From an archaeon (GTDB taxonomy: Archaea > Nanobdellota > Nanobdellia > Pacearchaeales > GW2011-AR1): a stretch of 64,000 bases of DNA. Under the pieces are notes generated by a model that was not told where the DNA came from, did no database searches, and worked only from the letters and a program-made list of their open reading frames with translations. The stretch covers positions 97,049 to 161,048 of the forward strand of contig JABHLR010000005.1 in assembly GCA_018693315.1 (NCBI GenBank). The letters run 5' to 3'. Positions 27,239 through 41,649 of the stretch are shown here, in pieces. Positions within the stretch are counted from its first letter, which is position 1; each line of letters starts with the position of its first letter. Both the position numbers and the translations under genes were made by a program.

Positions 27239-27301
27239 TCATCCCTTCGGCAGTCACCAGGTAGCGAGCGCTTCGTCAAGTTGTCCGCTGCTCACCGGTG
27301 A

Positions 27302-29030: not shown

Positions 29031-29450
29031 TATAGACTCCTTTCAGTCATATGTTTTGGCGCGTCTTTCCACCACATACAATGGCGGTTTGTTTCGTTTT
29101 TCGGCTAGTCGTCTTCTTCGTCGGGGCTATCTTCGCTTGTTCCGACGTTTCTGAGGCTTTCTTCTCTCCGTCTTTGTGCTTCCCTTCTTTCGATGCTGAA
29201 ATTTCCGTGTGCCATACACACCTCTGTTTCGTTAGGTTGATTCGGACGAGTTGAAGGAAGAGATCCGCTCGAGTAATGCGCCGAACGTCTGATGGGCGGC
29301 TCGAGCGGATACTCAACCTTGTCGATAGTTAATAGACTGGGATCCTGAAGCTTCGCCGTTAGCTTGTAACGTCTGGCAGAATCCCAGGTGAGACAGTATA
29401 CCGATAATTGACTGTGCGCGTGTTGTTGCGGCGGGCGAGTCGCTATACTG

Positions 29451-29894
29451 TTACTGCGTTTGTGTCTGCGGACTTTTTGTTGTGGCCAGCTTCCAGATTA
29501 AGCAGAGGAAGAGGACTACGCAGAAAGCCCCGGAGAGCGCGTAGCCGATTTTGAAGTCAGCTGCTCGTTCTCCCCAGTTTGCGATGACCTTTATCTGGCC
29601 GAAGCATTCCAATGCATAGTGTTTCAGGAAGGCTCCGACTTTCTCCACCGTGTTGCGCTTGAGAACGCCGGACATCTCAGCTGTGAAAAGCCTGGCGAGC
29701 ATAAACGTTGCGAACGGTGCGATTGCGGCTACGAACTTTCCTGCTAGACTTTCGGACGTTTGCCACAACATGTAGGCGGCGTAGAGTCCGAGCAAGGCGG
29801 CGCCAACAACTCTCCAATCTTTTGGGACCTCGATTGACATCATGACCAGGAAGATCAGGAGTAACGCATTGAATTTTATGTCTTTTCGCTGCAT
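29451..29894 (-). CDS. membrane protein (about 4 TM)
   Basis: GAAAGGAG 7 nt before the ATG. Hydrophobic helices throughout. Confidence 0.65.
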   Translation of the reverse strand: MQRKDIKFNALLLIFLVMMSIEVPKDWRVVGAALLGLYAAYMLWQTSESLAGKFVAAIAPFATFMLARLFTAEMSGVLKRNTVEKVGAFLKHYALECFGQIKVIANWGERAADFKIGYALSGAFCVVLFLCLIWKLATTKSPQTQTQ

Positions 29895-29907
29895 AATAAT
29901 CTCCTTT

Positions 29908-30162
29908 CTAGTCCATGATGTTTTCGACTCCGCCGGGCTTCTGTGTCTTCTCGGCGAAGGGGGTCATGAGAGTGGTTTCGCTGCCTTTAGCACTTTTGTG
30001 CCGGAGGTCGCCGAGGGAAGTCCTGATTCTTCCGAACCGAAGACTTGTTTTGTATTCGGCGTCCCTGACATCGACGCATCCACTTGTCATCATCGTCATT
30101 GCGGATACAAGCACCAGTACGATTACGGTTACGATCTGAGCTGTTCTTCTGTGAGCGTTCAT
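29908..30162 (-). CDS. small lipoprotein (84 aa)
   Basis: MNAHRRTAQIVTVIVLVLVSAMTMMTSGC has a lipobox-like TSGC. AGGAG upstream of the ATG at 30162. Confidence 0.6.
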   Translation of the reverse strand: MNAHRRTAQIVTVIVLVLVSAMTMMTSGCVDVRDAEYKTSLRFGRIRTSLGDLRHKSAKGSETTLMTPFAEKTQKPGGVENIMD

Positions 30163-30429
30163 CGCTTTTTCTCCTGCACCCAAGTGCATTTGGAAAAGCA
30201 TCCGTGCTTTGGTTTGTCAATCCATTTTGAACAAAAGCTTACCCAGCGTCTTGTTCTTGAAGATCGAGAGCTCCTTCCGGTTACAATCTCTCAACCCTTT
30301 CGGATTTCGGCGTGTGTGACTTCGCGATTTCTCCTTTCGCTGTGTCGTTTATCGTGAACACCTTGTGGTGTGTTAGTGTTTGTCTAAGGTTTGCCGTGAT
30401 AAGCTCTCGTGGAGCGTATCAGATCAGAC

Positions 30430-30492
30430 CCTAAAACAACGCCGACCGCGAGATCGTTTGTGGCTTTTATCTTACAAGGATCTCGCGGTCGG
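30430..30492 (-). terminator. rho-independent-type terminator
   Basis: 14-bp perfect stem CCGACCGCGAGATC/GATCTCGCGGTCGG (30442-30455 and 30479-30492), followed on the minus strand by CGUUGUUUUAGGG. Lies just downstream of 30510..31370. Confidence 0.7.
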
Positions 30493-30509
30493 GCTGGCTG
30501 GCTTTGATG

Positions 30510-31370
30510 CTAACGGATTTCTGGCACGTTGAGCGGCCGCTTGCTTGCCGTCCATTTTTCTGAAATCAGCTTGATGGCTGCTTCAACGTCAGGATCTCCC
30601 TTGGTCAATTCTAGGGCTTCTCGCAGCTTTGGTATCATCGGCTTGGCTTGTGCGCCGATTATTCCGAGGATCTGTGCGGCGTTTGCGGTATCCTTCCCTC
30701 CCTGTTCCAGTTTTTTGCTAAGTACTGGGAAGGTGAATGTTCCGAACTGCTCTAGCATCCGGGTGGCCTTTTCGCTTCTCTTCCCGGTTTTTTCAGAATA
30801 CGCCTCGAACAACTGTTCGGTGAGGCGGTCCTTGTGCCAGTAGGTTACCTCTCCTTCATCATTCTTAACGCCCGAGATTGCGAAGTCGCCTTGCATTAGC
30901 CCTATCAACTTTTCTCTGGTCTCGTTGATTATGTCTCTAGGGGGGCCGGCGACGTCTCGCTTGTTGGAGAGAACGCACGTTATTCTGGAGCAGTTTTCTT
31001 TTTCGACTTTGGCAATTAGCTCAATGCCGGGTTCGTAGGTGAGCCTTAGACTGACGCAGTCGGGTACTGCCTTGAGGAGTTCCGCACTGGCGTTCCTCAT
31101 GCTCTCGATTGCAACCTTCTCTCGTTCTTCATCTGTTTGTGTCGCTTTGTTGACCTTTTGACTTTCGGGCGTCAGGTGGTCGTAGATGAAGAAGTTGATA
31201 GATTGACCCAGAAATCCCCAGGCTGTGGCACCCGAGTAGACTCCAATGAGAATCAGCAGAATTTCTGGGAACCACAGTCTTTTGCGCTTGACCATCTTAC
31301 GACCCGCGATGATAAAACTCGCTATGCATACTACGCACAGCCCGATACCGACTAATTCTAGAAACGACAT
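30510..31370 (-). CDS. N-terminally anchored protein with C-terminal HEAT-like repeats
   Basis: AAAGGAG 6 nt before the ATG at 31370. 2 N-terminal TM segments. C-terminus AAQILGIIGAQAKPMIPKLREALELTKGDPDVEAAIKLI resembles HEAT/PBS-lyase repeats. Confidence 0.65.
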   Translation of the reverse strand: MSFLELVGIGLCVVCIASFIIAGRKMVKRKRLWFPEILLILIGVYSGATAWGFLGQSINFFIYDHLTPESQKVNKATQTDEEREKVAIESMRNASAELLKAVPDCVSLRLTYEPGIELIAKVEKENCSRITCVLSNKRDVAGPPRDIINETREKLIGLMQGDFAISGVKNDEGEVTYWHKDRLTEQLFEAYSEKTGKRSEKATRMLEQFGTFTFPVLSKKLEQGGKDTANAAQILGIIGAQAKPMIPKLREALELTKGDPDVEAAIKLISEKWTASKRPLNVPEIR

Positions 31371-31393
31371 GTGAGTCTCCTTTTCTTCTCTGG

Positions 31394-31411
31394 GCACCCT
31401 TTGCTAGGTGC
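31394..31411 (-). promoter_or_regulatory. conserved hairpin box GCACC-N8-GGTGC in a 5' leader (copy 1)
   Basis: gcaccctttgctaggtgc is identical to 31936..31953. It sits about 24 nt upstream of the start of 30510..31370. Confidence 0.5.
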
Positions 31412-31539
31412 TTAATAATAGGCATACTGCGATATTGCAGTAAGTTTTTGTAAAATAGGCCCGACCGCGGAAGGGGTTGTTCGTCCATCTTTAGTAAGAC
31501 AAAGGGGATTTTCCACGGCCAGGCAGTTTCGGCGTTGGA

Positions 31540-31917
31540 CTAGTCTCGATGGGAGTTTTTTATGATCTCTGGCAGAAGAACCGTTTCGCCTGTTCTTGGA
31601 TGGATTGGTCCTCCGAGAGCTGGGCCTACCCATTGTGCCATCGCGCTTTTGAAGCTGCGGTGGTTGGCTTTAATGTTCTTCCATAGAGATCTGATTCCCA
31701 GTATCGCGACTGAAGCGAGGGTTGTGACTAGAAGCAATATGTAGAGATAGATTCTTATTCTGCTCTCTTCTATGTGCGTTCTTGCTCGCAATTCGTCGCT
31801 TGTTCCGGTCATCTGCGTGGTTGCCGTGTCTTTGTTTGCGTAACCATAAATGTGTCCGGCTACGTATACAACTAACAACACGGTTAATACCAATACTGCT
31901 GCTTTTACGAATTTCAT
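31540..31917 (-). CDS. small membrane protein (2 TM)
   Basis: AAAGGAG 7 nt before the ATG at 31917. MKFVKAAVLVLTVLLVVYVAG plus a second TM segment. Confidence 0.65.
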   Translation of the reverse strand: MKFVKAAVLVLTVLLVVYVAGHIYGYANKDTATTQMTGTSDELRARTHIEESRIRIYLYILLLVTTLASVAILGIRSLWKNIKANHRSFKSAMAQWVGPALGGPIHPRTGETVLLPEIIKNSHRD

Positions 31918-31935
31918 CTTGCGGCTCCTTTCTAT

Positions 31936-31953
31936 GCACCCTTTGCTAGGTGC
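31936..31953 (-). promoter_or_regulatory. conserved hairpin box GCACC-N8-GGTGC in a 5' leader (copy 2)
   Basis: Identical 18-mer to 31394..31411, about 19 nt upstream of the start of 31540..31917. Confidence 0.5.
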
Positions 31954-32377
31954 GACTAAGATATACAACGATAAGTCCCGTGGGGCGTATCGCAGTAGTT
32001 CTTAGTAAAAGGGACCGGGCCTGGTCACGCGGTAATTGCCGGGATGCTAATGACGTCTAGCATATGGGACATAAGATTTTTCGCGACCAGGCCCAGCGTA
32101 TAATAAAAGAGCTCATGCAGGCTTTGGGGCGGCAGGTGAATGCCCGGTAACCTTTACCCGTAGTTATCGGTGGAGGTAGATCCGATATCGAGTTAACATG
32201 AGCTCCGCGGGTTTGTAAATTGGAAGGCCTGTTTAAACATGGATCTCACCCATGTCGATCTCACTTGTAGGCTGAACTCGCAGGGGAATCCCCAGCGACC
32301 TACTTGTGGTCATTCGCTTGTTGTGGTGGAATATATTGTCTATTCCTGAAGCGATCAGACCTTCCGAGTTCGGAGAG

Positions 32378-32911
32378 CTACCTGTTGTGCGGGCCGTTAG
32401 ATAGGCCGGTTGCGACTTCCTTTGATAGCGCCAGGACCACTATCGCGACAATTACTGTTACGGCTAGCGAGAGCAAGAGTTTTCCTGCAACTATACAAGT
32501 TGCTGCCGTTATGATCACCAGGGCGATAGCTATCCATGCTTTGGGGTCGTTCCTGATTGCCCTGATTTTTCTTGTTGTCGCGGACCAGATTCTTTGGCAG
32601 GTATCAGCTGCTATTATCAGGGTCACGAATACTACAAGCAGGGTTGTGAGCATTGTGAAACTTTCTTTTGGAGGGTCCCTTCGTTTCTTTTTCGGCCAGA
32701 CTTTTTTGTATACTTTATACGTCCAGATGACGGTTAAGTAGTAGACTAGGAATGCCGCTACGAAGACGCCGAGGAACGTCTTGACGGAGAGATAGAGAGC
32801 GCTCCGCTCGAAGACATTTTCTGGTATCTCGATTGTGGTTTCCGAATTTGTCAACGCCTTGATTGGGAACCTGAAGAGGCCTTCCCACGAACCGCTCTGC
32901 CCTTTTCTCAT
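32378..32911 (-). CDS. membrane protein (4 TM)
   Basis: GAAAGGAG 5 nt before the ATG at 32911. Four hydrophobic helices and a KKKRRDPPKE loop. Confidence 0.65.
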   Translation of the reverse strand: MRKGQSGSWEGLFRFPIKALTNSETTIEIPENVFERSALYLSVKTFLGVFVAAFLVYYLTVIWTYKVYKKVWPKKKRRDPPKESFTMLTTLLVVFVTLIIAADTCQRIWSATTRKIRAIRNDPKAWIAIALVIITAATCIVAGKLLLSLAVTVIVAIVVLALSKEVATGLSNGPHNR

Positions 32912-33622
32912 AATGGCTCCTTTCATGGCGCCTTAGTTTGTATATGCGAAGGAACCCGGCCTGCACGAACCACCCACATTTGGTGTTCCGGGTTCCTTCT
33001 GTGTAACGAGTGATCTTGCCGAAACAATCAGCGTTGCACTCGGGACATTTTGCGGCGGCGTGGCACTATTAATGGCGAACCGGGAAAGGAGAGAAACCGG
33101 TTCACCAAAGCCCACGCCGCCTTGTTTTGTTTGTGCGTCTCCTTTTCGTAAAAATTACAAAGGGAACTCGAGATCGCTGCAAGGATGGCGAGTCCAAATC
33201 TCGAGCCCCTTTGCGTGCAGTGAATGCTATCTTCAGCAGCCACTTCTTGTGTTGTCGAGTGGGGCGGCCGGGATCACAGTGAGTGCGGCACTGTGGCAAA
33301 TATCCCGGACCGCCAAAGCGAGCTTGGAACATGACAGCAGCAACCTGTCACGGATCATCAGAATCGCAGGAGCCGGTCAAAACCTACTTATCGTGATCTC
33401 CTTCTGGGAAGGTCAAGCTGGCACCACTCAACTTATAATAATCGAGAAATCAGGTAGACACTTTGCTTTTTAGTGTCAAGCCAGGATTTACTTCATCTTC
33501 CTGAACCCTGCACAAATACCTGATCTTTTTTTACCTGATTCTCGATGTTGGTAATTAAGGAATCCTGATGGCGGAGTTTTATTTCCTTGTCAGGATCCCT
33601 TGGAGAAAACCATGGCGAATGG

Positions 33623-33772
33623 TTACTTTGTTATTCTCCGTACTGGAATGAACATTGTCCAGCTAGAACTTTTTCGTCTGTGGAGAGTGGCGGCGTTTAT
33701 GATGATGCATACTAAAGTAATGATCACCATTGCTACCATTTCGAATAAAACTTTTGCGCACTTCTTTGCCAT
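33623..33772 (-). CDS. small single-TM protein (49 aa)
   Basis: Hand translation: MAKKCAKVLFEMVAMVIITLVCIIINAATLHRRKSSSWTMFIPVRRITK. AGAAAGGAA lies 7 nt upstream. A GGATCCTGA/TCAGGATTCC hairpin follows the stop. Confidence 0.45.
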   Translation of the reverse strand: MAKKCAKVLFEMVAMVIITLVCIIINAATLHRRKSSSWTMFIPVRRITK

Positions 33773-33881
33773 TTCAGAATTCCTTTCTTAGTTGGCGTTG
33801 TTTCGACTAAAGAGTTCTATCGCGTACACTTGCCAAGGTGTACAGGACAGAACTCTCCTATGCGAGCGAGAGTTTGCGGGG

Positions 33882-34127
33882 TTACTCCAGAATTCCTGGG
33901 ATTCCTGGAGCGGCTTTCGGCTCTTCTTTTAGCTGTGCGAACGACCATCCTTTTTTAAGGCCGTCGTTTATGAACACGGCAGATGCTGTTCCAAGTAAGA
34001 TCGAAGCAATTATGCAAAATATTCCGCCCCAGAAATAGTTTCGCATTAGTTTCGGTGCTACTCGAATCATGAGGAGTACTGCGATGGCTGCGAGAACGAC
34101 GCCGATAAGTAGTTCGATTATACCCAT
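33882..34127 (-). CDS. small membrane protein (2 TM)
   Basis: GAAAGGAG 7 nt before the ATG. MGIIELLIGVVLAAIAVLLMI and FWGGIFCIIASILLGTASAVF. Confidence 0.65.
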   Translation of the reverse strand: MGIIELLIGVVLAAIAVLLMIRVAPKLMRNYFWGGIFCIIASILLGTASAVFINDGLKKGWSFAQLKEEPKAAPGIPGILE

Positions 34128-34147
34128 TATTGGGCTCCTTTCTGCGT

Positions 34148-34354
34148 TTAGTCGGTTGTCGAGAGTTTGCCCATTTCATCGTAGAGCATTTGCGTTGTGA
34201 TTCCTTCTCTTGTACGGAAGGTTTTTACAAATGCTGCTAGAATGTCTTGCATTTCTCGGCAGTTCGATGATTGAGGGAGGCCGCCCTCGTCTAGACGTGC
34301 CTTTAGGAACGTTGCTTCTGCTGGCATTATTCCAACGGTTGCGAAGTCGTCCAT
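34148..34354 (-). CDS. small soluble hypothetical protein (68 aa)
   Basis: AAAAGGAT 7 nt before the ATG. Tightly packed with its neighbours. Confidence 0.55.
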   Translation of the reverse strand: MDDFATVGIMPAEATFLKARLDEGGLPQSSNCREMQDILAAFVKTFRTREGITTQMLYDEMGKLSTTD

Positions 34355-34391
34355 ACGCTTTATCCTTTTCTTCTAGAGTTTCTGATACAGG

Positions 34392-34454
34392 GGCATGCGG
34401 CAGGGTGCACCAGCTAATGGAACCGGTGCAGCCTACTTCGTGTCTCTGCGTGGG
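34392..34454 (-). repeat. 63-bp intergenic repeat, copy 1
   Basis: ggcatgcggcagggtgcaccagctaatggaaccggtgcagcctacttcgtgtctctgcgtggg. Differs at 1 nt from 34728..34790. Ends just before the stop codon of 34456..34686 (1 nt between). Confidence 0.85.
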
Positions 34455-34455
34455 G

Positions 34456-34686
34456 TTAATTTGATGGGCCCCTCTTCTTGACTTCCGTCAGTATTTTGCG
34501 GAAGGTTTCAATATTCAAGCTTCCCCATACTCGGAAGGTGGCTTTGAAACTCCTTAGGGCTTCCGTTATTATTGCGTCATCTACTTCTGGAAAGCCCTTG
34601 TTTCGTATCAAGAAGATCCTTAAGTGACCTTCTTCGCTCGGGCCTATTCGTTTCATTATGTCGGAAATAGTATCGACTTTTGCCAT
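34456..34686 (-). CDS. small soluble hypothetical protein (76 aa)
   Basis: GAAAGGAG 8 nt before the ATG at 34686 (MAKVDTISD...). Confidence 0.6.
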   Translation of the reverse strand: MAKVDTISDIMKRIGPSEEGHLRIFLIRNKGFPEVDDAIITEALRSFKATFRVWGSLNIETFRKILTEVKKRGPSN

Positions 34687-34727
34687 CGCGCTTGCTCCTT
34701 TCGAGCTTAGAATTTTCGGTTTACAAA

Positions 34728-34790
34728 GGCATGCGGCAGGGTGCACCAGCTAATGGAACCGGTGCAGCCTACTTCGTGTCTCTGTGTGGG
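34728..34790 (-). repeat. 63-bp intergenic repeat, copy 2
   Basis: Same 63-mer (c->t at one position). Directly abuts the stop codon of 34791..35168. Confidence 0.85.
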
Positions 34791-35168
34791 TTACTTCTGC
34801 ACTTCGAACTCTCGTGTTCGTTCCGGCGCGCGTATTGTTCCGGCGCGGAGCCATCCCGTATCGCTATGGGAGTTTTCCACGAATATTATGAATTCTTGGC
34901 CGTCTCGAATTACACAATATTTTGTTTGGAAGCTGACGATTCCGGTTGGTTCCTCATTTGAGGGTTCGTTTTCGTTGCGCGCGGTCTCGATTCGTATGAA
35001 CCGGCCCTTAAGATTGTGGATCTCGCCTTCTTCTTGCCCTTCGTGTCTGACAATCTCTACTCCTAGATGGGCATCTTTTCTTGAGTAGGATCTTCGTTCC
35101 CGGCATCCGGCGAGCGTTGTTATCATTACAAGGCTTGCACACACAATAAATCGGGTTGCCTGTTTCAT
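34791..35168 (-). CDS. lipoprotein (125 aa)
   Basis: MKQATRFIVCASLVMITTLAGC has the lipobox LAGC. GAAAGGAG 4 nt before the ATG. Confidence 0.7.
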   Translation of the reverse strand: MKQATRFIVCASLVMITTLAGCRERRSYSRKDAHLGVEIVRHEGQEEGEIHNLKGRFIRIETARNENEPSNEEPTGIVSFQTKYCVIRDGQEFIIFVENSHSDTGWLRAGTIRAPERTREFEVQK

Positions 35169-35206
35169 GAGTCTCCTTTCAGGCGTTAGTACAATTGTCT
35201 TGCGAC

Positions 35207-35281
35207 TGGGAGAGGCAGGATTCGAACCGTTGCAACCGGGTCATTTGAGGTGACCTGCTCTGCCAATTGAGCTACTCTCCC
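35207..35281 (-). tRNA. tRNA-like gene, anticodon UCA (opal-reading, Trp-tRNA-like body); irregular, possibly a pseudo-tRNA
   Basis: Hand fold of the minus strand: acceptor GGGAGAG/CTCTCCC, D arm GCTC-AATTGGCA-GAGC, anticodon arm GGTCA-CCTCAAA-TGACC, T loop TTCGAAT. C at position 33 and a 2-nt bulge in the T stem (GCA-AC-GG vs CCTGC) are atypical. No encoded CCA. Confidence 0.55.
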
Positions 35282-35404
35282 GGTTGGCCAGGCGCTCCTG
35301 TGGGGGGAGACAGGATGGAGGCGGGGGGGACCTCTGCCCGACCGGGTAGTTCATCATTGCAGGTGATGCTATGACTAGCTACCGTTTGATTTCGACGGGT
35401 TGGA

Positions 35405-35644
35405 CTAGGCTTTGATGTCGGACTTTATGATGCATTCTCTGCAGGGGTTGCTGCTGCGGCTATTATCTGCTGCGAAAACTTCATGGCCCTTGCTGCATCT
35501 GGCGACAGCTTCGATGGTGCTTTTTCTGGCTGTGACTTTTTCGTTCGCTTCTTGGTCGGTTTTGTTATGACCAGTACAACGACGGTCGGCTTTTCGGATC
35601 CAGTTCTTAAATCCATTCGTGAGATCATAGCACAATCCTTTCAT
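35405..35644 (-). CDS. small Cys-containing hypothetical protein (frame ambiguous)
   Basis: The ATG at 35644 lies 1 nt after the upstream stop (coupling). The alternative overlapping frame 35425..35628 has AAAGGA 7 nt upstream of its ATG. I cannot choose between them from sequence. Confidence 0.35.
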   Translation of the reverse strand: MKGLCYDLTNGFKNWIRKADRRCTGHNKTDQEANEKVTARKSTIEAVARCSKGHEVFAADNSRSSNPCRECIIKSDIKA

Positions 35645-35645
35645 G

Positions 35646-35987
35646 CTAACGGGGTTTCTTCTTTGCGGGGGCGAGGATTGCGCCGGTCTTTCTGTTGACT
35701 CGGTATCCTGCCTTGGAGTAACCTATCGTGGCGATGTCGCTTTGCGCGGCAGTTGGTTCGCCTATTTTGTAGACATTTCCATCTTCATCGATGTCGTATA
35801 TATCTGACCATGCTGACGGGTCGTTGATATTTTTGTGTGTCAGCTTTGGCTTCTGTGGTGCGGCGTTTGTAGTCGGAACGCTTTTATCTGTTCCGGCGGG
35901 GTTAGCGATGATGTCCTTGCTTGCGAACTGCACGAATGCGGCTGCGATTGCAAGGAATATGAGCACTGCTGCGAATTTTCGGTTCAC
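35646..35987 (-). CDS. secreted hypothetical protein (113 aa)
   Basis: GTG start 6 nt after GAAAGGAG. Signal-like MNRKFAAVLIFLAIAAAFVQFAS. Confidence 0.6.
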   Translation of the reverse strand: MNRKFAAVLIFLAIAAAFVQFASKDIIANPAGTDKSVPTTNAAPQKPKLTHKNINDPSAWSDIYDIDEDGNVYKIGEPTAAQSDIATIGYSKAGYRVNRKTGAILAPAKKKPR

Positions 35988-36255
35988 TGTGAGCTCCTTT
36001 CATTTAGCCTGAGCACATTGCGGCGAAGGATAGTAGTGTGAAAAACAATACTTTTCTTCTGTGCTTTGCTTCTTCTGATGTACCGAACATTTGTTTCTCC
36101 TCCGGCTGTGAGCGTTAGGGGTTTTAACGGTTACTGAATATTACCTCTCTTGGAGGGCATATCCTGGAATCGTTGTTAATAGTAGACCCCGGGGCACTGG
36201 CGGGTTCGGACAGTGGGAAAAGTGCGCCCGGGGTCTCTGGTTCGTGTTGCGACTG

Positions 36256-36444
36256 TTAGGCTTCGTCCGGCTTTTTCTTCCCTGTTCCCTTGAGTGCTTC
36301 GCTACATACCTTTCTGCACTCTGGACATTCCATATTATCTCTAACCAGATTATGGAATTCGTTGAGATCTCTCTCTTTCGCTGCCTGTAGCTGTTTGGCC
36401 GTCAGGTGCGAATGCTCTGCCTTTGCTTCTTGCGTCTGTTGCAT
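36256..36444 (-). CDS. small protein with a CxxC motif (62 aa)
   Basis: MQQTQEAKAEH...MECPECRKVCSE. GGAG upstream. A GACCCCGGG/CCCGGGGTC hairpin lies downstream. Confidence 0.5.
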   Translation of the reverse strand: MQQTQEAKAEHSHLTAKQLQAAKERDLNEFHNLVRDNMECPECRKVCSEALKGTGKKKPDEA

Positions 36445-36616
36445 CTTTACGCTCCATCTGAGGTTTTCGAATTAACGACTTGTTGCTAGGATCCTTTCGC
36501 ATAAAGCTTCGCACTTTTCGCAGCCAATTATTGACATGGCTACTACGAGAAGGGTCCCGTCTTTGTGGAAGGCGATAGCATCGTCCTCCGTGAGGCATTC
36601 GTGATCAAGCAATGGT

Positions 36617-36964
36617 CTAGATCTCCTTATCTAGGGGTTGTGGCGATTCGGCTACGCGGTTCGTTGTTGCGCTCGCCGAGCTGGTATATCTTTTTGCGTC
36701 ATAGGACAGATATGATTTTCCTGCCCAGATGACTGCTACGAGCGCTAGGGTTGATATTACTCCTAAGGCTGTGTACTGGACGCGCTCTCTGCCCAGGACG
36801 ATTACGTGGCGGAAACATGCGACTGCGAGTGCGGCCATAATGAGACCCAGTGTGACGATTGCCGCGAATTGTACAGATCCGCAAGGGCCCGATATACAGA
36901 GCACAAAGAAGAAAAGGAATACGGCAATCCCGGCGAGTACTGCGGTTGTTTTGAAGCTATTCAT
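36617..36964 (-). CDS. membrane protein (3-4 TM)
   Basis: GAAAGGAG 6 nt before the ATG. The 28-nt translation-initiation region is nearly identical to that of 40948..41382. Confidence 0.65.
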   Translation of the reverse strand: MNSFKTTAVLAGIAVFLFFFVLCISGPCGSVQFAAIVTLGLIMAALAVACFRHVIVLGRERVQYTALGVISTLALVAVIWAGKSYLSYDAKRYTSSASATTNRVAESPQPLDKEI

Positions 36965-37011
36965 GGCATTCTCCTTTCATGAGGTTGCCAATTTTAGTGA
37001 TTGTAGCACAT

Positions 37012-37055
37012 GGGTACCCCAACGGTGAGTTGTTGAGGTACCCATCTGCGGTGCG
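37012..37055 (-). repeat. partial copy (distal hairpin only) of the ~140-bp leader element
   Basis: gggtaccccaacggtgagttgttgaggtacccatctgcggtgcg. 12-bp stem with 1 mismatch. Shares the GTTGAGGTACCCATCTGCGGT core with copies A-E. Confidence 0.7.
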
Positions 37056-37071
37056 ACCAGGACTAGTCAGG

Positions 37072-37863
37072 TTACTGGAGACTAACGGACCTTTCCGTAA
37101 CCTTGTCGATTTCTTCGACTATCTGCTCTAGAGACTTGATTGTCCTGCGAGGCATTCTCATTGCCTTCAGGCTTTTCTCTAAAACTTTTACTTCTTTTAG
37201 AAGCTCGATATCTTCTTTTTCGTTAACCAGAGCTTCTTCGGCAGCTTCGAGCAGGTTGACCTTGAGGTTTCTGCCGTTCTTGAGGATTTTTAGCGTCTCC
37301 TCGTCGGTGGTCTTTGCTATCTTGATGTTGTGCTTCTTCAGGTCTTCTTTTTGAGACTTAATGATAGCTTCTCGTTCTTTGACTACTGCTTCGCAGCTTT
37401 CGATTATTTCGTCGTAGATGGAAGTTGTATCGTTTTTGTCGATTTTCGGCTGGGTTGTTGCCGGGGGCCTGGTGCCTTTTATTGTTTTCCCGGTAAGTTC
37501 CATCGGAACGACGATTTCCATGATGGGTTCTTGAAACGACTTGGGGTCGGGGTTGTCGCTGACGTCGAAGATTCGGATTGTTTTCCCTCTTAGCTCTTTG
37601 TAGTGACCGAAGGTGTCCAGTGGCATGACCTTGAAGTACCAGTCTTTTACTTCTCCTTTGCCGTCGTTGCTCCATGCTTCGATCATTAAGGTGGATTTTC
37701 CGAAGTTTACGATTCGTCCTCCGTGACCGTAATTGAGGCTGGTGAGGGTGATGCCGATTTGGTCATCTCTGAAAACTTCCTGGTCTGCGCTGTCAGTTCT
37801 GTTGCATCCGGCGAACGCTGCTACGAGGCTCACACACACGATAAGTGTTGTTAGATTCTTCAT
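37072..37863 (-). CDS. lipoprotein with C-terminal coiled-coil region (263 aa)
   Basis: MKNLTTLIVCVSLVAAFAGC (lipobox FAGC). GAAAGGAC 6 nt before the ATG at 37863. K/E-rich helical C-terminus. Confidence 0.7.
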   Translation of the reverse strand: MKNLTTLIVCVSLVAAFAGCNRTDSADQEVFRDDQIGITLTSLNYGHGGRIVNFGKSTLMIEAWSNDGKGEVKDWYFKVMPLDTFGHYKELRGKTIRIFDVSDNPDPKSFQEPIMEIVVPMELTGKTIKGTRPPATTQPKIDKNDTTSIYDEIIESCEAVVKEREAIIKSQKEDLKKHNIKIAKTTDEETLKILKNGRNLKVNLLEAAEEALVNEKEDIELLKEVKVLEKSLKAMRMPRRTIKSLEQIVEEIDKVTERSVSLQ

Positions 37864-38010
37864 GGGTTTGTCCTTTCTGGACATTAAATATAGAGAGGGC
37901 CCGGGGCACCTAGCGGGAGGCTAGTATGAATGTGCGTCTGAGCCATCTCTGTTTGGGTGAGTTAATTCTTTCACGAGAGAGAATGTTTTGAAAACTGCTG
38001 GGGTTGTGGT

Positions 38011-39096
38011 TTAGATGTCGGTCATGATACATTCGGCGGGGGCCAAGAGCATGTATGAGAACTCATAATCCATGCTATCGGAAGTGTTGTCAAGGACTAC
38101 GAACGATTTCCCGTTGATTTCGACCGTGTTGCCGAATTCTACTTCTTTGTCTATTCTTTCTGGAAGCATAGGAATCTTTTTTGCTGTTGCGCAGTCAATA
38201 TGCTTTGCATATTTGAACACCGGAATTTCGAACACTTTGGGAACGTCGATTACCAGTGAGACTCCTGTGTTATGCGGCGGGGCGAGCTCGGGTTCCTCTT
38301 CTTGTGCTGCTCTGACGATTGAGGAGAGCGGGACAGGGCCGTTTTTTACGGGTGCAGCGGTAAAGCATTCGGTGAAAGCGGCGGCCAGTGCCTTTCCTTC
38401 ATCTGTTTCCAGATTGGCAAAACAGAGCGCCAAGCGGAGAAAGAAGTCTTTTACCGTTGCAATTAGAGGCCAATTACGATATAACATGATATTGTCCTTT
38501 GCGAAAGATTGTCTGTTTTTTGTGGAAGTGCCGGCGCTGAATACTGCCATTATGATGCGCTCTAATGCTTGACAGATGGAATCTGTATCTTCATCAGAGA
38601 CACTCAGTAAGGCATCAATCGCGTTCATCCCACTCGTGTCTATTGGAATTTGAATGAATTTTACAAGTTCTTCGCCGCCTTCGCTTTTGAAGTATTCTCT
38701 TGTTAGTTCTTCGTCATCGCATGCACATGTGGCATAAACTTCGCCATTCTTTGTTTCCAGTATTGCAACGTTGATCGTTTCGCATTTCTGAGGTTCTTGT
38801 TGATTGTTTGGTTCGTTACGTTTCGGAACTTCCTGTTCCACATCTTCCTGTTTGCTGGTGTCGTTCATGACATCCGTTGCCCTTGTCACAGTTCTACCTC
38901 TCTCTTGTGTTGTGCCTAAGAGAAAGGTGACATTCTGTCCTTGGAAGAGCTCAATATTATCATGAGTGGATCCTACCTCAACTCTCTTGTCATTGAGTTC
39001 TTCCTGCCTAGAGTCTTTGATTCTAACTTTCCAGACCCATTTACCGCCTTTTTTGTCTTTGCCTAGTACGAAGCCTTTTATTCTTGCCTGTTCCAT
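38011..39096 (-). CDS. hypothetical protein (361 aa), largest island ORF
   Basis: Preceded by leader copy A with AGGAG 8 nt before the ATG. No motif recognised. Confidence 0.65.
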   Translation of the reverse strand: MEQARIKGFVLGKDKKGGKWVWKVRIKDSRQEELNDKRVEVGSTHDNIELFQGQNVTFLLGTTQERGRTVTRATDVMNDTSKQEDVEQEVPKRNEPNNQQEPQKCETINVAILETKNGEVYATCACDDEELTREYFKSEGGEELVKFIQIPIDTSGMNAIDALLSVSDEDTDSICQALERIIMAVFSAGTSTKNRQSFAKDNIMLYRNWPLIATVKDFFLRLALCFANLETDEGKALAAAFTECFTAAPVKNGPVPLSSIVRAAQEEEPELAPPHNTGVSLVIDVPKVFEIPVFKYAKHIDCATAKKIPMLPERIDKEVEFGNTVEINGKSFVVLDNTSDSMDYEFSYMLLAPAECIMTDI

Positions 39097-39238
39097 TGCC
39101 TTTTCTCCTGTCTTGGGATCCTACCTGGATCCGGCCTTCCATGTGCTTTTCTCCGGACTTTGGACCGGTACATCCAAACATATGGACGTAGTGCATTAAT
39201 ACCCCAACTATGAGAGCTGTTGAGGTACCCATCTGCGG
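39097..39238 (-). repeat. ~140-bp hairpin-rich leader element, copy A
   Basis: Spans from the start codon of 38011..39096 to the stop codon of 39239..39526. Contains the GGATCC-N5-GGATCC, ACGTCCA/TGGATGT and TACCTCAAC/GTTGGGGTA stems (minus strand). Confidence 0.9.
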
Positions 39239-39526
39239 TTATTCTATGTCTATCTCTTGGGCGACTTTTCGTGTTCCACATTTGAAGAGAATTCTTGCAT
39301 CATCTTCACTGAACATCTTAATAAGCTCTTGCTTGTCTCCTGCTCCTTCGACGAATAGGAGACCTGTTTCTTCGTTTTTCCCGTCTGTGCCGAATGCTAT
39401 TTCCACGCCGGCAGGGTTGATGAAGCGGATACTACGGGCTTCACCAGGATTATCGTTCTCTTCTATTCTGATGCAATCCGCTAGGCGCATTTGTGCTGTT
39501 TCGACTGTCAGTTCGCTCGTTTTCAT
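39239..39526 (-). CDS. hypothetical protein (95 aa), paralogue of 40515..40796
   Basis: Start set at MKTSELTVE (GAAGGA upstream). The longer ORF-track N-terminus only translates the repeat. Core ADCIRIEE..NPGEARSIRFINPAGVEIAFGTDG is shared with the paralogue. Confidence 0.65.
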   Translation of the reverse strand: MKTSELTVETAQMRLADCIRIEENDNPGEARSIRFINPAGVEIAFGTDGKNEETGLLFVEGAGDKQELIKMFSEDDARILFKCGTRKVAQEIDIE

Positions 39527-39668
39527 GATTAAATCCTTCATTTTGGAATCCTTCCTGGATTCGGCCTTCCATGTGTCTTTTATCCGGACTTTGGACCGGT
39601 ACATCCAAACATATGGACGTAGTGCATTAATACCCCAACTATGAGTTGTTGAGGTACCCATCTGCGGT
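39527..39668 (-). repeat. ~140-bp leader element, copy B
   Basis: Same element. The proximal stem carries a compensatory pair change (GAATCC/GGATTC instead of GGATCC/GGATCC). Confidence 0.9.
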
Positions 39669-39783
39669 GCGGCGAATGAGGTTGCAGATCTAAAGGAGTT
39701 GGTTTCTTTGAGATACAATGCGGACCGAGCTTCCTTAGCAAGCGTTACTCACTATTGTAGCTCGGTTCTAAGAACTCATGAAC

Positions 39784-39939
39784 CTAGTAGCTGCACCGGT
39801 TCATTGCAATTCCTAGATCATGTGTGAATGATTTTGTTGATTTGTAGTAAAGTATGACTGCTGCAATCGCAATGCCAGTCAAACCAAAAATTGCTACAAA
39901 TACCAAACCATTCATAACCGGCGTAACCCATTTAATCAT
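39784..39939 (-). CDS. small single-TM protein (51 aa)
   Basis: Hand translation: MIKWVTPVMNGLVFVAIFGLTGIAIAAVILYYKSTKSFTHDLGIAMNRCSY. CAGGAG lies 6 nt upstream, inside leader copy C. An ACCGAGCT/AGCTCGGT hairpin follows the stop. Confidence 0.5.
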   Translation of the reverse strand: MIKWVTPVMNGLVFVAIFGLTGIAIAAVILYYKSTKSFTHDLGIAMNRCSY

Positions 39940-40079
39940 TTTTGACTCCTGTCTTGGGATCCTTCCTGGATCCAGCCTTCCATGTGCTTTTCTCCGGACT
40001 GTGGACCGGTATAGCTACACAAGTAACTATAGTGCATTAATACCCCAACTATGAGAGCTGTTGAGGTACCCATCTGCGA
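39940..40079 (-). repeat. ~140-bp leader element, copy C
   Basis: Same flanks. The central stem is replaced by TATAGTTA/TAGCTATA, still base-paired (one G.U on the minus strand). Confidence 0.9.
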
Positions 40080-40367
40080 TTATGCTGCTTCTGACATTAG
40101 CGAATGAAATGCGAATTCGTTGGACATCTTTCCAATAAGTCTTTTAACGACCAAGGCTTCTTCGCGTTCGAGTTCGCCTGTCATTTTGTCGATGAGTCTT
40201 CGAACGGCTAAGGCGTCTTTGTAGAAAGAGAAGGTGATTTGTATAAGACCATCGACTTCTTCTACTCTGTGAATCTTACTTCTGATTTCTTCGTTAATCT
40301 TATCAATTGTTCCTTCTGTGCAGAACAGTTTGATTCCGACTGATACGGTGTTTGTGCTAATTAACAT
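40080..40367 (-). CDS. hypothetical protein (95 aa)
   Basis: AAAGGAAAG upstream of the ATG. Has an internal repeat ALAVRRLIDKMTGE / ALVVKRLIGKMSNE. Confidence 0.6.
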   Translation of the reverse strand: MLISTNTVSVGIKLFCTEGTIDKINEEIRSKIHRVEEVDGLIQITFSFYKDALAVRRLIDKMTGELEREEALVVKRLIGKMSNEFAFHSLMSEAA

Positions 40368-40510
40368 GATACTTTCCTTTTTCTTTGGATCCTACCTGGA
40401 TCCAGCCTTCCATGTGCCTTTTATCCGGACTGTGGACCGGTACAATTACACAAGTAATCGTAGTGCATTAATACCCCAATAAGAGTCTATTGGGATATCC
40501 ATCTGCGGTT
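40368..40510 (-). repeat. ~140-bp leader element, copy D
   Basis: Central stem ACGATTAC/GTAATTGT and distal stem CCCAATA/TATTGGG both differ in sequence from the other copies but stay complementary. Confidence 0.9.
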
Positions 40511-40514
40511 ATAT

Positions 40515-40796
40515 TTAGTCTACTTCTTGGACGACTTTTTTCGTTCCATATCCGAAGAGAATCCTGGCCTCATCACAATGGAAATCCCCGACGAGCTCTT
40601 CTTTCTCTCCTGTGCCTTGGACGAACAAGAGACCTGTGTCTTTGTCTTCCCCATCTGTGCCGAATGCTATTTCCACTCCGGCAGGGTTGATGAAGCGGAT
40701 ACTACGGGCTTCACCAGGATTACCATCTTCTTCTATTCTGATGCAATCTGCGAGGAGTTTTTGTGCTGTTTCTAGTGTTAGTTCTTTCGTTTTCAT
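40515..40796 (-). CDS. hypothetical protein (93 aa), paralogue of 39239..39526
   Basis: MKTKELTLETAQKLLADCIRIEEDGNPGEARSIRFINPAGVEIAFGTDG... The ATG at 40796 is preferred over the TTG at 40802. Confidence 0.65.
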   Translation of the reverse strand: MKTKELTLETAQKLLADCIRIEEDGNPGEARSIRFINPAGVEIAFGTDGEDKDTGLLFVQGTGEKEELVGDFHCDEARILFGYGTKKVVQEVD

Positions 40797-40941
40797 AATC
40801 AAATCTTTCTTTTTGGGATCCTACCTGGATCCAGCCTTCCATGTGCCTTTTATCCGGACTGTGGACCGGTACAACCAAACATATGGTTGTAGTGCATTAA
40901 TACCCCAACTATGAGAGCTGTTGAGGTACCCATCTGCGGTT
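40797..40941 (-). repeat. ~140-bp leader element, copy E
   Basis: Central stem ACAACCA/TGGTTGT is perfect and differs from copy A by a compensated pair. Confidence 0.9.
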
Positions 40942-40947
40942 TGGCGA

Positions 40948-41382
40948 TTAGGACTCGGTGGATACGTCATCGGGCTTTTCGGCGGGGGGGAAGCAGGTCG
41001 CACCAATTAAGGCTTCCATCGTATTGTCTCTGAACAGGGCTTTTACGATGACACTAGCGAGCGCTGTTGCTGCGTTCGGAGTGGGAAGGCAGTTGCTTGC
41101 CACGAGTGCTTCGGGCACGATTTCGCCGATGCTTTCGAGCATTTCCTTATCGGAGGGTACTGATGCCTCTCGTCCTTTTTTCGGAGAGGTGGATGCAAGT
41201 GCTGAGACAAGGTGCGAACTCCAGCCCGTGAGCATTTCTGCCAAGAAAGGCGCGGCTTTTTCTGCAATGGCCAGGGATATGTCTTCATTGAAGGGGTTGT
41301 CTCCGTCCGCGTTTTCTTCCTTGATTCCTTGTTGCAGCGATACGATAGTGAAGCTTGTCAGAATTTTTCGATCGTTTGTCAT
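40948..41382 (-). CDS. hypothetical protein (144 aa), first gene of the island
   Basis: GAAAGGAG 6 nt before the ATG. No motif recognised. Confidence 0.6.
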   Translation of the reverse strand: MTNDRKILTSFTIVSLQQGIKEENADGDNPFNEDISLAIAEKAAPFLAEMLTGWSSHLVSALASTSPKKGREASVPSDKEMLESIGEIVPEALVASNCLPTPNAATALASVIVKALFRDNTMEALIGATCFPPAEKPDDVSTES

Positions 41383-41649
41383 GGCGTTCTCCTTTCAAGA
41401 GGTTGCCGGGTTTTTGTCAATAGAACACCATATATGGGTATTCCGGTTTGTTTTTGTTAATAAGACAGTAGCGGAGCTATAGAATTTTTGTTTAATGGAA
41501 ACCTATTCCGTGAAAACTTGTGGTTCTCATAGGGTATTCCTTTGTATTTGTATATCCACGATGTGTTTTTGGTGTGTCAATAAAATTCGGCGTGATGTCG
41601 AATTTGTTGTCTATGTATTCTGTGGATAAAGGGTTATTTGTGAATGTGA

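What the first reader, a model, noticed from the sequence alone, without database searches (positions are those of the whole stretch)
35207..35281. Bacterial-type tRNA-like gene with a UCA (UGA-reading) anticodon and non-canonical features
The minus strand folds by hand into a 75-nt cloverleaf: 7-bp acceptor stem GGGAGAG/CTCTCCC, D arm GCTC/GAGC with an AATTGGCA loop, and a 5-bp anticodon stem GGTCA/TGACC. The anticodon loop CCUCAAA places UCA at positions 34-36. The body (GTAGCTCAATTGGCAGAGCA) resembles bacterial tRNA-Trp, whose loop is CUCCAAA. UCA-anticodon tRNAs are known as opal suppressors or recoding tRNAs in stop-codon-reassigned phages and bacteria. This one is atypical in two ways: C replaces the near-universal U33, and the T stem has a 2-nt bulge (GCA-AC-GG against CCTGC). 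It may therefore be a decayed tRNA, a former attachment site, or an unusual suppressor. Island ORFs that end in TGA are followed by terminators or by the next SD, so wholesale UGA recoding of the island looks unlikely.
Basis: partly seen in the sequence, partly recalled or inferred. Interest (0 to 1): 0.6.

Follow-up and report, generated by a model that had tools for sequence, protein, structure and literature searches.

The report
Island-borne tRNA-shaped gene with UCA loop
A well-folded, bacterial-looking tRNA gene with a stop-codon-reading (UCA) anticodon sits inside a foreign 15-kb island of a tiny DPANN archaeon; relatives of the island keep only its tRNA shape, not its anticodon, so it most likely marks an RNA cutting site and is at best a weak stop-codon suppressor.

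Summary
ARAGORN and Rfam both call a 75-nt tRNA at 35207-35281(-), scoring 57.5 bits. The anticodon is UCA, C33 replaces U33, and the T arm is irregular.

It is not tRNA-Sec, not a copy of the host tRNA-Trp, and not an att remnant. It lies mid-operon in a 50% GC island that is 100% identical in at least 7 independent assemblies and is absent from 40 relatives.

Two diverged relatives of the island (L017, L094) carry a tRNA-like element at the same place, behind the same leader hairpin. Acceptor, D and T arms are kept through compensatory changes: 8 of 21 pairs changed on both sides. Their anticodon arms hold 42- and 59-nt inserts with no usable anticodon.

The conserved function is therefore tRNA shape, not decoding. 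My best reading is an RNase P/tRNase Z "punctuation" module in a polycistronic RNA that also carries five twister ribozymes in the same leader position.

A weak opal suppressor is not excluded. Only 1 of 23 island genes ends in TGA, against 24% in the host. However, no gene needs TGA read as sense, and most relatives are also TGA-poor.

The parts
35207..35281 (-). 75-nt tRNA-shaped gene: 7-bp acceptor stem, canonical D arm, 5-bp anticodon stem, loop CCUCAAA (UCA at 34-36, C33), irregular T arm, A73, no encoded CCA
   Evidence: ARAGORN; Rfam RF00005 57.5 bits; sequence
35282..35314 (-). Leader hairpin CCTGTC-N8-CAGGA followed by 14 nt, directly 5' of G1. It is conserved in spacing and motif in both relatives (L017, L094).
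   Evidence: Alignments; pattern match in own genome only; fold
35346..35399 (-). 54-nt upstream block, 52/54 identical to L094 although flanking proteins are only about 67% identical. It is an unidentified conserved RNA or DNA element.
   Evidence: Sequences; alignment; no Rfam family
35425..35628 (-). Small SD-preceded ORF (67 aa, TAA stop) upstream of the leader. Its L094 counterpart ends in TGA.
34791..35168 (-). Next cistron (125-aa lipoprotein-like). Its SD and ATG begin 38 nt after the tRNA 3' end, on the same strand.
39153..39237 (-). Twister-P5 ribozyme, 56 nt upstream of the 361-aa gene start. One of five copies; the others are at 39584-39666, 39994-40078, 40425-40507 and 40854-40938.
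   Evidence: Rfam
25991..41481 (-). Foreign island of about 50% GC in a 40% GC genome. All genes lie on the minus strand with GAAAGGAG-type SDs. It holds the tRNA, the ribozymes and a PEP-CTERM protein.
   Evidence: identical in at least 7 assemblies; absent from relatives

Best explanation
The gene is a real, structurally maintained tRNA-shaped RNA. It belongs to a recently acquired, bacterial-like (Planctomycetota-flavoured) island in a DPANN archaeon. It is the local representative of a small family of island-borne tRNA-like modules that sit at a fixed place in the operon, behind a conserved leader hairpin and 38-51 nt ahead of the next cistron.

Across the family the acceptor, D and T arms are conserved. 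These form the L-shaped 'elbow and top half' that RNase P, tRNase Z and the CCA-adding enzyme recognise. The anticodon domain is free to vary.

I infer that the module's main job is to be cut out of the long same-strand transcript by the host's tRNA-processing enzymes. That would separate and give defined ends to the neighbouring mRNAs. It would be the protein-enzyme counterpart of the five self-cleaving twister ribozymes that occupy the same leader position before other cistrons of the island.

In this island the module is a near-canonical tRNA, probably captured from a bacterial tRNA. Its decoding-relevant sites are off-consensus (C33 and an irregular T stem). The UCA triplet is therefore most likely incidental, giving at most weak UGA read-through.

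Shown: the fold, the synteny, the compensatory conservation, the lack of its own promoter or terminator, and the presence of host RNase P RNA. Inferred: co-transcription, cleavage, and the low decoding activity.
For: 1. **Family and synteny.** L017 (PEP-CTERM homologue 55% identical) and L094 (113-aa homologue 67% identical) carry a tRNA-like element at the collinear place, behind the CCTGTC..CAGGA-N14 leader. Rfam tRNA scores are 43.0 and 43.7 bits.
2. **Structure is selected.** 60 of 63 stem cells are paired. 8 of 21 pairs changed on both sides, and the D stem is invariant.
3. **The anticodon is not conserved.** L017 and L094 have 42- and 59-nt inserts. No single excision yields a loop with a credible anticodon in both elements, and every L017 candidate lacks U33. 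ARAGORN finds nothing at default settings.
4. **Operon context.** The element lies on the same strand as all island genes. There is no sigma-70-like promoter and no terminator next to it on that strand. The next SD and ATG follow after 38 nt (46 nt in L017, 51 nt in L094).
5. **Parallel with ribozymes.** Five twister-P5 ribozymes lie 51-57 nt (42 nt for one copy on one of its two candidate starts) upstream of other start codons in the same island, and nowhere else in the genome.
6. **Host processing.** The host has an archaeal RNase P RNA (80.8 bits, E 2e-23, full length).
7. **Where the deviations fall.** Folding positions are all canonical. The deviations sit at the U-turn (U33 is nearly invariant in elongator tRNAs, PMC5041475) and in the T stem.
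8. **Module swap.** The leader is 96% identical to L094, but the tRNA body is very different and matches Phycisphaerae tRNA-Lys/Trp in its 5' third. This suggests that any tRNA-shaped unit serves at this site.
Against:
- Only three family members were found, two of them on short contigs.
- A pure processing signal would not need a perfect 7-nt loop, A37-A38 or a 5-bp anticodon stem. This copy keeps all three.
- Island genes almost never end in TGA: 1 of 23, P = 0.017 against host usage and about 0.001 against off-frame TGA frequency. That is what a working opal suppressor would select for.
- A73 with G1-C72 fits archaeal-type TrpRS recognition (PMC12135181).
Confidence: 0.45

Rival explanations
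1. Working opal (UGA) suppressor or UGA decoder. The RNA is matured, CCA-tailed and charged, most plausibly with Trp by the archaeal-type host TrpRS. It then reads UGA on the ribosome. The island protects itself by ending its own genes in TAA or TAG, while about a quarter of host genes would be extended.
For: - Canonical cloverleaf, 7-nt loop, UCA at 34-36 and A37-A38.
- 22 of 23 SD-supported island genes end in TAA or TAG. Host TGA usage is 24%, and off-frame TGA inside island genes is 34%.
- L017, which lacks a UCA loop, uses TGA for 5 of 13 called genes (Fisher P = 0.007 with my own gene calls).
- A73 is the archaeal/eukaryal tRNA-Trp discriminator. E. coli TrpRS does not need to discriminate C34 from U34 (PMC12135181).
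- Non-U33 tRNAs do function in nature: C33 in eukaryotic initiators and G33 in Candida tRNA-Ser(CAG) (PMC5041475).
Against: - No island ORF needs TGA as sense; table 4 changes nothing of substance.
- C33 and the irregular T arm should lower ribosomal and elongation-factor performance.
- Relatives keep the module without any anticodon.
- The other relatives without a UCA loop are also TGA-poor: L018 0/5, L021 1/9, L094 0/3. The depletion is therefore partly a family habit.
- The identity set is ambiguous. The acceptor stem equals that of a Phycisphaerae tRNA-Lys, and the RNA is only 67% or less similar to any host tRNA.
Confidence: 0.27
2. tRNA-scaffolded or aminoacylatable tRNA-like RNA with a non-ribosomal role. 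The family would be a chassis whose anticodon arm carries variable cargo: the 42- and 59-nt inserts with a shared AGGAA-hairpin motif. Alternatively it would be alanylated (G3.U70 plus A73 in the relatives) for some non-decoding use. On this reading the copy here is a minimal or cargo-less version.
For: - Both relatives have G3.U70 and A73, the classic AlaRS determinants (established knowledge). L017 also gives a sub-threshold tmRNA hit of 27.6 bits.
- The inserts share an AAGGAA(A/C)C motif next to a hairpin.
- A related contig encodes CsrA, which binds GGA motifs.
Against: - The window copy has G3-C70 and no insert, so this reading explains the relatives better than the finding itself.
- The inserts are too short for a tmRNA-type tag frame, and archaea have no known SmpB or tmRNA system.
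- There are only two examples.
Confidence: 0.13
3. Non-functional passenger: a tRNA gene carried in with a recently transferred bacterial island and now decaying in an archaeal host that does not use it.
For: - The island is recent and unameliorated: 50% against 40% GC, and absent from same-genus genomes.
- There are two off-consensus features, C33 and the T arm.
- There is no detectable need for UGA decoding.
Against: - Compensatory maintenance of three stems across relatives whose proteins are only 31-67% identical.
- All tertiary-fold nucleotides are intact.
- Fixed position behind a conserved leader.
- All neighbouring ORFs are intact and identical in at least 7 assemblies.
Confidence: 0.1

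Closest known systems
tRNA 'punctuation' and tRNA-linked mRNA processing (mitochondrial punctuation model; the bacterial tRNA-tufB operon; tRNA-like mascRNA of MALAT1) - from established knowledge
   Same: A tRNA or tRNA-like fold is embedded in a longer same-strand transcript, with no promoter or terminator of its own. The fold elements needed by RNase P and tRNase Z are conserved. A coding region follows closely.
   Different: Here the element sits in a mobile island of a DPANN archaeon, side by side with twister ribozymes doing the analogous job. Family members carry large anticodon-arm inserts. Cleavage has not been shown.
Suppressor tRNAs of stop-codon-recoded phages and of code 4/25 bacteria - from established knowledge; reviewed in papers listed
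   Same: Carried by a mobile element, with an anticodon complementary to a stop codon (UCA). The element's own genes avoid that stop codon.
   Different: No in-frame TGA occurs in any island gene. C33 replaces U33 and the T arm is irregular. The host is an archaeon with normal TGA stop usage of 24%. Relatives of the element lack the anticodon altogether.
tRNA-Sec (the label ARAGORN gives)
   Same: UCA anticodon only.
   Different: It has a 7/5 acceptor/T geometry rather than 8/5 or 9/4, a 4-bp rather than 6-bp D stem, and a 5-nt rather than long variable region.
Bacterial (Phycisphaerae) tRNA-Lys(UUU) and tRNA-Trp(CCA)
   Same: Nt 1-26 are 96% identical to a Phycisphaerae tRNA-Lys, including the acceptor 5' strand and A73. 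The D arm TAGCTCAATTGGCAGAGC is identical to Phycisphaerae tRNA-Trp, and the variable loop is similar (CGGTT against AGGTT).
   Different: The anticodon arm and T arm are unrelated. Overall identity is only 65-71%. The loop is CCUCAAA, against CUUUUAA (Lys) and CUCCAAA (Trp). Bacterial tRNA-Trp has G73.
tmRNA and viral tRNA-like structures
   Same: The relatives L017 and L094 have G3.U70 plus A73, an intact T arm and an expanded middle part. L017 gives a sub-threshold tmRNA hit of 27.6 bits against a gathering score of 47.
   Different: The window copy has G3-C70 and a normal anticodon arm. All members keep a full D stem. There is no tag reading frame and there are no pseudoknots.

Membership tests
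Canonical elongator tRNA (Rfam RF00005) | Cloverleaf scoring above the family gathering threshold | tested here: met
   57.5 bits against a gathering score of 29, over the full model 1-71
Canonical elongator tRNA (Rfam RF00005) | Conserved tertiary-fold nucleotides (U8, A14, R15-Y48, G18 G19, A21, U54-A58, C56, G53-C61) | tested here: met
   All are present when the sequence is numbered with the Infernal alignment
Canonical elongator tRNA (Rfam RF00005) | U33 (U-turn) and purine 37 in a 7-nt anticodon loop | tested here: not met
   The loop is CCUCAAA: C33, with A37 present. U33 is nearly invariant in elongator tRNAs (PMC5041475).
Canonical elongator tRNA (Rfam RF00005) | Regular 5-bp T stem with a 7-nt T loop | tested here: not met
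   Infernal needs a 2-nt AC insert in the 5' strand. ARAGORN draws a 3-bp stem and an 8-nt loop.
tRNA-Sec | 8/5 or 9/4 acceptor/T helix, 6-bp D stem, long variable arm | tested here: not met
   7-bp acceptor stem, 4-bp D stem, 5-nt variable region
Opal suppressor / UGA-decoding tRNA of a recoded element | Anticodon UCA at positions 34-36 | tested here: met
Opal suppressor / UGA-decoding tRNA of a recoded element | In-frame TGA codons in the element's genes (ORFs lengthen or merge when TGA is read as sense) | tested here: not met
   Under table 4 the main island ORFs are unchanged. Only upstream pseudo-extensions and one 28-codon tail appear.
Opal suppressor / UGA-decoding tRNA of a recoded element | TGA avoided as a stop codon in the element | tested here: inconclusive
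   1 of 23 genes (P = 0.017 against the host). However, the relatives L018, L021 and L094, which have no UCA tRNA, are also TGA-poor, while L017 is TGA-rich.
Opal suppressor / UGA-decoding tRNA of a recoded element | Mature, CCA-tailed, aminoacylated RNA; read-through in vivo | not testable with these tools
tRNA-Trp | Anticodon CCA; discriminator G73 (bacteria) or A73 (archaea and eukaryotes) | tested here: inconclusive
   The anticodon is UCA, not CCA. A73 fits the archaeal type only (PMC12135181). The RNA is unrelated to the host tRNA-Trp, which is not among its closest host tRNAs; the best host match, tRNA-Phe, is 67% identical. It is 65-71% identical to Phycisphaerae tRNA-Trp.
Integration-site (att) tRNA remnant | Lies at an island edge, with a repeated tRNA 3' or 5' segment at the other edge or in a host tRNA gene | tested here: not met
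   It lies at 35.2 kb, inside an island spanning 26.0-41.5 kb. The 3' half has no second copy in the window, and the whole tRNA has no second copy in the genome.
tRNA-like processing ('punctuation') element | Embedded in a same-strand multi-gene unit without its own promoter or terminator | tested here: met
   This rests on consensus scans only; archaeal promoters are not covered by the tool.
tRNA-like processing ('punctuation') element | Acceptor/T/D architecture conserved among homologues while the anticodon domain is free to vary | tested here: met
tRNA-like processing ('punctuation') element | Host has RNase P; cleavage occurs at G1 and after N73 | tested here: inconclusive
   RNase P RNA is present (80.8 bits, just under the gathering score of 84, E 2e-23). 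Cleavage itself is not testable here.
tmRNA | G3.U70, no anticodon arm, tag reading frame with pseudoknots | tested here: not met
   The window copy has G3-C70 and a normal anticodon arm. Only the relatives have G3.U70.

The most novel reading that the evidence does not exclude
The island expresses a host-orthogonal opal suppressor. It has a bacterial-type tRNA body with an archaeal-type A73 that the DPANN host's TrpRS can charge. It would extend the roughly 24% of host proteins that end in UGA, while the island's own genes (22 of 23 ending in TAA or TAG) are immune. That would be stop-codon-based host manipulation by a cross-domain mobile element in an archaeon. C33 and the T-stem bulge would tune its activity to a tolerable level.
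Probability: 0.15. Interest if true: 0.8.

Novelty: new variant of a known kind. Interest (0 to 1): 0.5.

Why it matters
If the processing reading is right, this island shows two interchangeable ways of cutting a polycistronic RNA side by side: self-cleaving twister ribozymes and a tRNA-shaped handle for host RNase P and tRNase Z. That would give a concrete biological role to the long-puzzling ribozyme arrays seen in metagenomic and viral contigs. It would also add a natural "tRNA scaffold" family with variable anticodon-arm inserts.

If the suppressor reading is right, it would be, to my knowledge, the first mobile-element opal suppressor described in an archaeon. It would sit on an element that looks bacterial (Planctomycetota-like PEP-CTERM tail and tRNA body), which bears on cross-domain gene transfer into DPANN archaea.

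Either way, the UCA anticodon alone is not evidence for genetic-code change in this genome.

Tried and rejected
- **tRNA-Sec:** rejected on geometry.
- **Paralogue of a host tRNA:** rejected. The best host match is 67% identical (tRNA-Phe), and the host tRNA-Trp(CCA) is unrelated.
- **att remnant:** rejected. There is no repeat and the gene is not at an island edge.
- **Assembly chimera:** rejected. The tRNA, the island and the island-ppsA junction are 100% identical in L009-L016, which come from JGI, ENA and Logan assemblies.
- **Code 4/25 recoding of the island:** rejected.
- **Introns in L017/L094:** rejected. I tested whether excising any single stretch restores a canonical anticodon loop; it gives no credible anticodon. 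ARAGORN at relaxed settings proposes only an implausible Pro(AGG) with A33.
- **Searches that found nothing useful:**
  - The exact anticodon-arm 17-mer in viral contigs gave 4 chance hits, none a tRNA.
  - T-arm, Trp-like-suppressor and leader patterns in viral contigs gave 0 hits.
  - A twister 17-mer gave 2 chance hits.
  - The leader pattern in 400 Phycisphaerae-class and 400 own-phylum genomes gave only chance-level hits.
  - Plasmid DNA search gave none.
- **Island proteins:** the 361-aa and 286-aa proteins have no real homologues. Pfam and PHROGs give only PEP-CTERM.
- **Empty-site comparison:** it failed. In three same-genus genomes the HerA-like ATPase is not next to ppsA.
- **Genome-contig scan with the PEP-CTERM family:** it returned almost only the 23-residue tail. 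That is useful as a taxonomic hint (Phycisphaerae/Planctomycetota) but not for finding more tRNA-like elements.

Full report
**1. Observation**

ARAGORN finds two tRNAs in the window. One of them lies exactly at 35207-35281 on the minus strand, with anticodon tca at position 34. ARAGORN labels it 'SeC' purely from the anticodon. Rfam's tRNA model scores it 57.5 bits against a gathering score of 29, with E = 8e-10, over the full model.

The sequence reads: GGGAGAG-TA-GCTC-AATTGGCA-GAGC-A-GGTCA-CCTCAAA-TGACC-CGGTT-GCAACGG-TTCGAAT-CCTGC-CTCTCCC-A.

All nucleotides that build the L-shape are canonical: U8, A14, A15-U48, G18 G19, A21, C13-G22-G46, U54-A58, C56 and G53-C61. No CCA is encoded.

Two features are off-consensus.
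- Position 33 is C rather than U.
- The T arm is irregular. Infernal draws 5 bp with an AC bulge. ARAGORN draws a 3-bp stem with an 8-nt loop.

**2. What it is not**

- It is not tRNA-Sec. It has a 7/5 helix geometry, a 4-bp D stem and a 5-nt variable region.
- It is not a duplicate of a host tRNA. The 674-kb, 8-contig, 40% GC genome has 34 ARAGORN tRNAs, including its own tRNA-Trp(CCA). The closest host tRNA is 67% identical.
- It is not an att remnant. It lies mid-island. Its 3' half has no second copy in the window, and the whole tRNA has no second copy in the genome.

**3. Setting**

The host is archaeal: L10e and L35Ae are encoded nearby, and earlier notes call it a DPANN archaeon.

The tRNA lies in the only large GC-rich block of the genome, about 25991-41481 in window coordinates, at about 50% GC. 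All island genes are on the minus strand and carry GAAAGGAG-type Shine-Dalgarno sequences.

Pfam and PHROGs recognise nothing in the island except a PEP-CTERM tail. That tail variant, PEPATMSLLALGGLAxLRRRRR, is found almost only in Phycisphaerae and other Planctomycetota MAGs.

The tRNA body points the same way.
- Nt 1-26 are 96% identical to a Phycisphaerae tRNA-Lys(UUU), including the acceptor strand and A73.
- The D arm is identical to Phycisphaerae tRNA-Trp(CCA).
- In phage records the best full-length matches are tRNA-Asn (79%) and mycobacteriophage tRNA-Trp (76%).

The island is not an assembly artefact. The tRNA, the island and its junction with the archaeal ppsA gene are 100% identical in contigs from at least 7 independent JGI, ENA and Logan assemblies, the longest over 220 kb.

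The island is absent from relatives. The tRNA sequence finds only one weak hit (75% identity, E 4.6e-4, not followed up) among 40 related genomes. Its signature protein is absent from 400 genomes of the class. This looks like a recent acquisition.

**4. Is UGA recoded?**

No. Under table 4 the substantial island ORFs (361, 300, 295, 270, 182 aa and so on) are unchanged. Only spurious upstream extensions and one 28-codon tail appear. The host uses TGA for 24% of the stops of its ORFs of at least 200 aa.

There is one intriguing signal. Of 23 SD-supported island genes, 14 end in TAA, 8 in TAG and only 1 in TGA. Yet TGA makes up 34% of off-frame stop triplets inside those same genes. The binomial P is 0.017 against host usage and about 0.001 against the off-frame frequency. 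Gene-caller predictions stored with the contigs agree: 1 TGA of 16.

**5. Relatives change the picture**

The PEP-CTERM protein has a 55% identical homologue on a 10.5-kb contig, L017. The 113-aa protein just upstream of the tRNA has a 67% identical homologue on a 2.3-kb contig, L094. Gene order is collinear with the island.

At the corresponding place, both contigs carry a tRNA-like element that Rfam's tRNA model scores at 43.0 and 43.7 bits. ARAGORN does not call either one. All three elements sit behind the same leader: a CCTGTC-N8/9-CAGGA hairpin followed by 14 nt and then G1.

A further 54-nt upstream block is 52/54 identical between the island and L094, although the neighbouring proteins are only about 67% identical.

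Splitting the three RNAs into arms gives the following.
- 60 of 63 stem cells are paired.
- 8 of 21 pairs changed on both sides: acceptor pairs 4-6, four of the five anticodon-stem pairs, and T pair 3.
- The D stem is invariant.

The anticodon loop, however, is 7 nt only in the window copy. L017 has 42 nt there and L094 has 59 nt. I tested excision of every possible single stretch. It never produces a credible anticodon loop; every L017 candidate lacks U33 (A33 or C33). Relaxed ARAGORN offers only an implausible Pro(AGG) with A33.

Both relatives also have G3.U70 plus A73, and L017 gives a sub-threshold tmRNA hit. The window copy has G3-C70.

What selection keeps across the family is therefore the tRNA shape, not a decoding function.

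**6. Mechanism proposed**

The tRNA has no sigma-70-like promoter or terminator of its own on its strand. The next cistron's SD and ATG begin 38 nt after A73. The spacers in the relatives are 46 nt (L017) and 51 nt (L094).

The same island holds five twister-P5 self-cleaving ribozymes. These are the only ones in the genome. Each lies 51-57 nt upstream of a start codon, except that one copy lies 42 nt from one of its two candidate starts. The host encodes a full-length archaeal RNase P RNA (80.8 bits, E 2e-23).

The simplest reading is that the island's long transcript is cut into units at structured leaders. Ribozymes do this in some places. In one place it is done by a tRNA-shaped handle that host RNase P and tRNase Z excise.

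Two observations fit this reading.
- The deviations of this copy fall exactly where ribosomal function is sensitive: the U-turn base, which is nearly invariant in elongator tRNAs (PMC5041475), and the T stem. Every folding position is intact.
- The leader is 96% identical to L094 while the tRNA body is quite different and matches genuine Phycisphaerae tRNAs. This suggests a module swap in which 'any tRNA will do'.

I put this explanation at 0.45. Co-transcription and cleavage are inferred, not shown.

**7. Rivals**

- **Weak but real opal suppressor (0.27).** This remains possible. The loop is perfect apart from C33, and A37-A38 are present. A73 is the archaeal-type tRNA-Trp discriminator, and E. 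coli TrpRS does not need to discriminate C34 from U34 (PMC12135181). The island's genes avoid TGA stops, whereas L017, without a UCA loop, uses TGA for 5 of 13 genes. Against it: no gene needs UGA decoding. The other UCA-less relatives are also TGA-poor (L018 0/5, L021 1/9, L094 0/3). The aminoacylation identity is ambiguous.
- **tRNA-scaffold or alanylatable tRNA-like RNA (0.13).** This explains the relatives better than the window copy.
- **Plain decay (0.10).** This is contradicted by the compensatory changes.

**8. Novelty and limits**

tRNAs on mobile elements, suppressor tRNAs and tRNA punctuation are all known. The following appear new, and the literature searches I ran found no paper describing them.
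- The combination of a bacterial-type tRNA with UCA and C33 inside a bacterial-like island of a DPANN archaeon.
- Membership in a family whose anticodon arm is replaced by inserts.
- Co-occurrence with twister arrays.

Limits:
- Only three family members were found.
- The gene calls are partly my own SD-based heuristic.
- The consensus promoter scan does not cover archaeal promoters.

Noticed in passing
window 35346-35399 (-): A 54-nt block upstream of the tRNA leader is 52/54 identical to L094:1827-1880, although flanking proteins are only about 67% identical. It folds as an imperfect long hairpin (GTAG..TCAT-A-GCA-TCACC-TGC-A-ATGA..CTAC) and matches no Rfam family beyond a chance-level sR10 hit. 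It may be an unrecognised RNA or DNA element.
   Followed up: partly
L017:4655-4761 and L094:1947-2071: The syntenic tRNA-like elements of two related contigs have G3.U70 plus A73 (the AlaRS identity set) and an A.C at T-stem pair 1. Their anticodon arms hold 42- and 59-nt inserts that share an AAGGAA(A/C)C motif next to a hairpin. L017 also swaps U8/A14 to A8/U14 and gives a sub-threshold tmRNA hit (27.6 bits).
   Followed up: partly
window 39153-40938 (-), also 37003-37055: Five twister-P5 ribozymes, two above and three just below the Rfam gathering score, each lie about 51-57 nt upstream of a start codon; one copy lies 42 nt from one of its two candidate starts. A 53-nt twister-like fragment lies 39 nt upstream of the gene that starts at 36964. 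There are none elsewhere in the genome.
   Followed up: partly
window 34386-34454 and 34722-34790: Two 69-nt direct repeats, 96% identical, contain a TGCACC-N13-GGTGCA hairpin. Each sits right after the stop codon of a consecutive small gene just downstream of the tRNA. They may be another processing or stability signal.
   Followed up: no
window 27302-28204 (-); genome C6:19076-19162 (outside the window): The island protein ends in a PEP-CTERM tail of the Phycisphaerae/Planctomycetota type. A second PEP-CTERM-like tail (E 6e-8) sits in a 227-aa ORF in normal-GC host sequence, so the archaeon itself may use this sorting signal. I did not check for an exosortase or archaeosortase.
   Followed up: no
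L017:382-1164, 1994-3961, 9886-10221; L021:3299-3544: Related contigs encode an outer-membrane-barrel-like protein ending in ...SFKW, a MutS_V-domain ATPase, FHA-domain proteins and a CsrA homologue. These are features of diderm bacteria rather than archaea, which supports a bacterial origin for the element family.
   Followed up: no
L017:5731-8568: All five TGA-terminated genes of L017 cluster in the half downstream of its tRNA-like element, while the upstream half uses only TAA. I have no explanation for this.
   Followed up: no
genome C5:178157-178447 (-), outside the window: The host's archaeal RNase P RNA scores 80.8 bits, just under the Rfam gathering score of 84. A gathering-threshold annotation would therefore miss it.
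   Followed up: no
window 41650-43614 (-) and relatives G001, G006, G012: The HerA/DUF87-like ATPase next to the island is conserved (65-78% identity) in 9 of 15 same-genus genomes. In the three I fetched it is not next to ppsA, so local synteny around the insertion site is not conserved and no clean empty site was found.
   Followed up: partly
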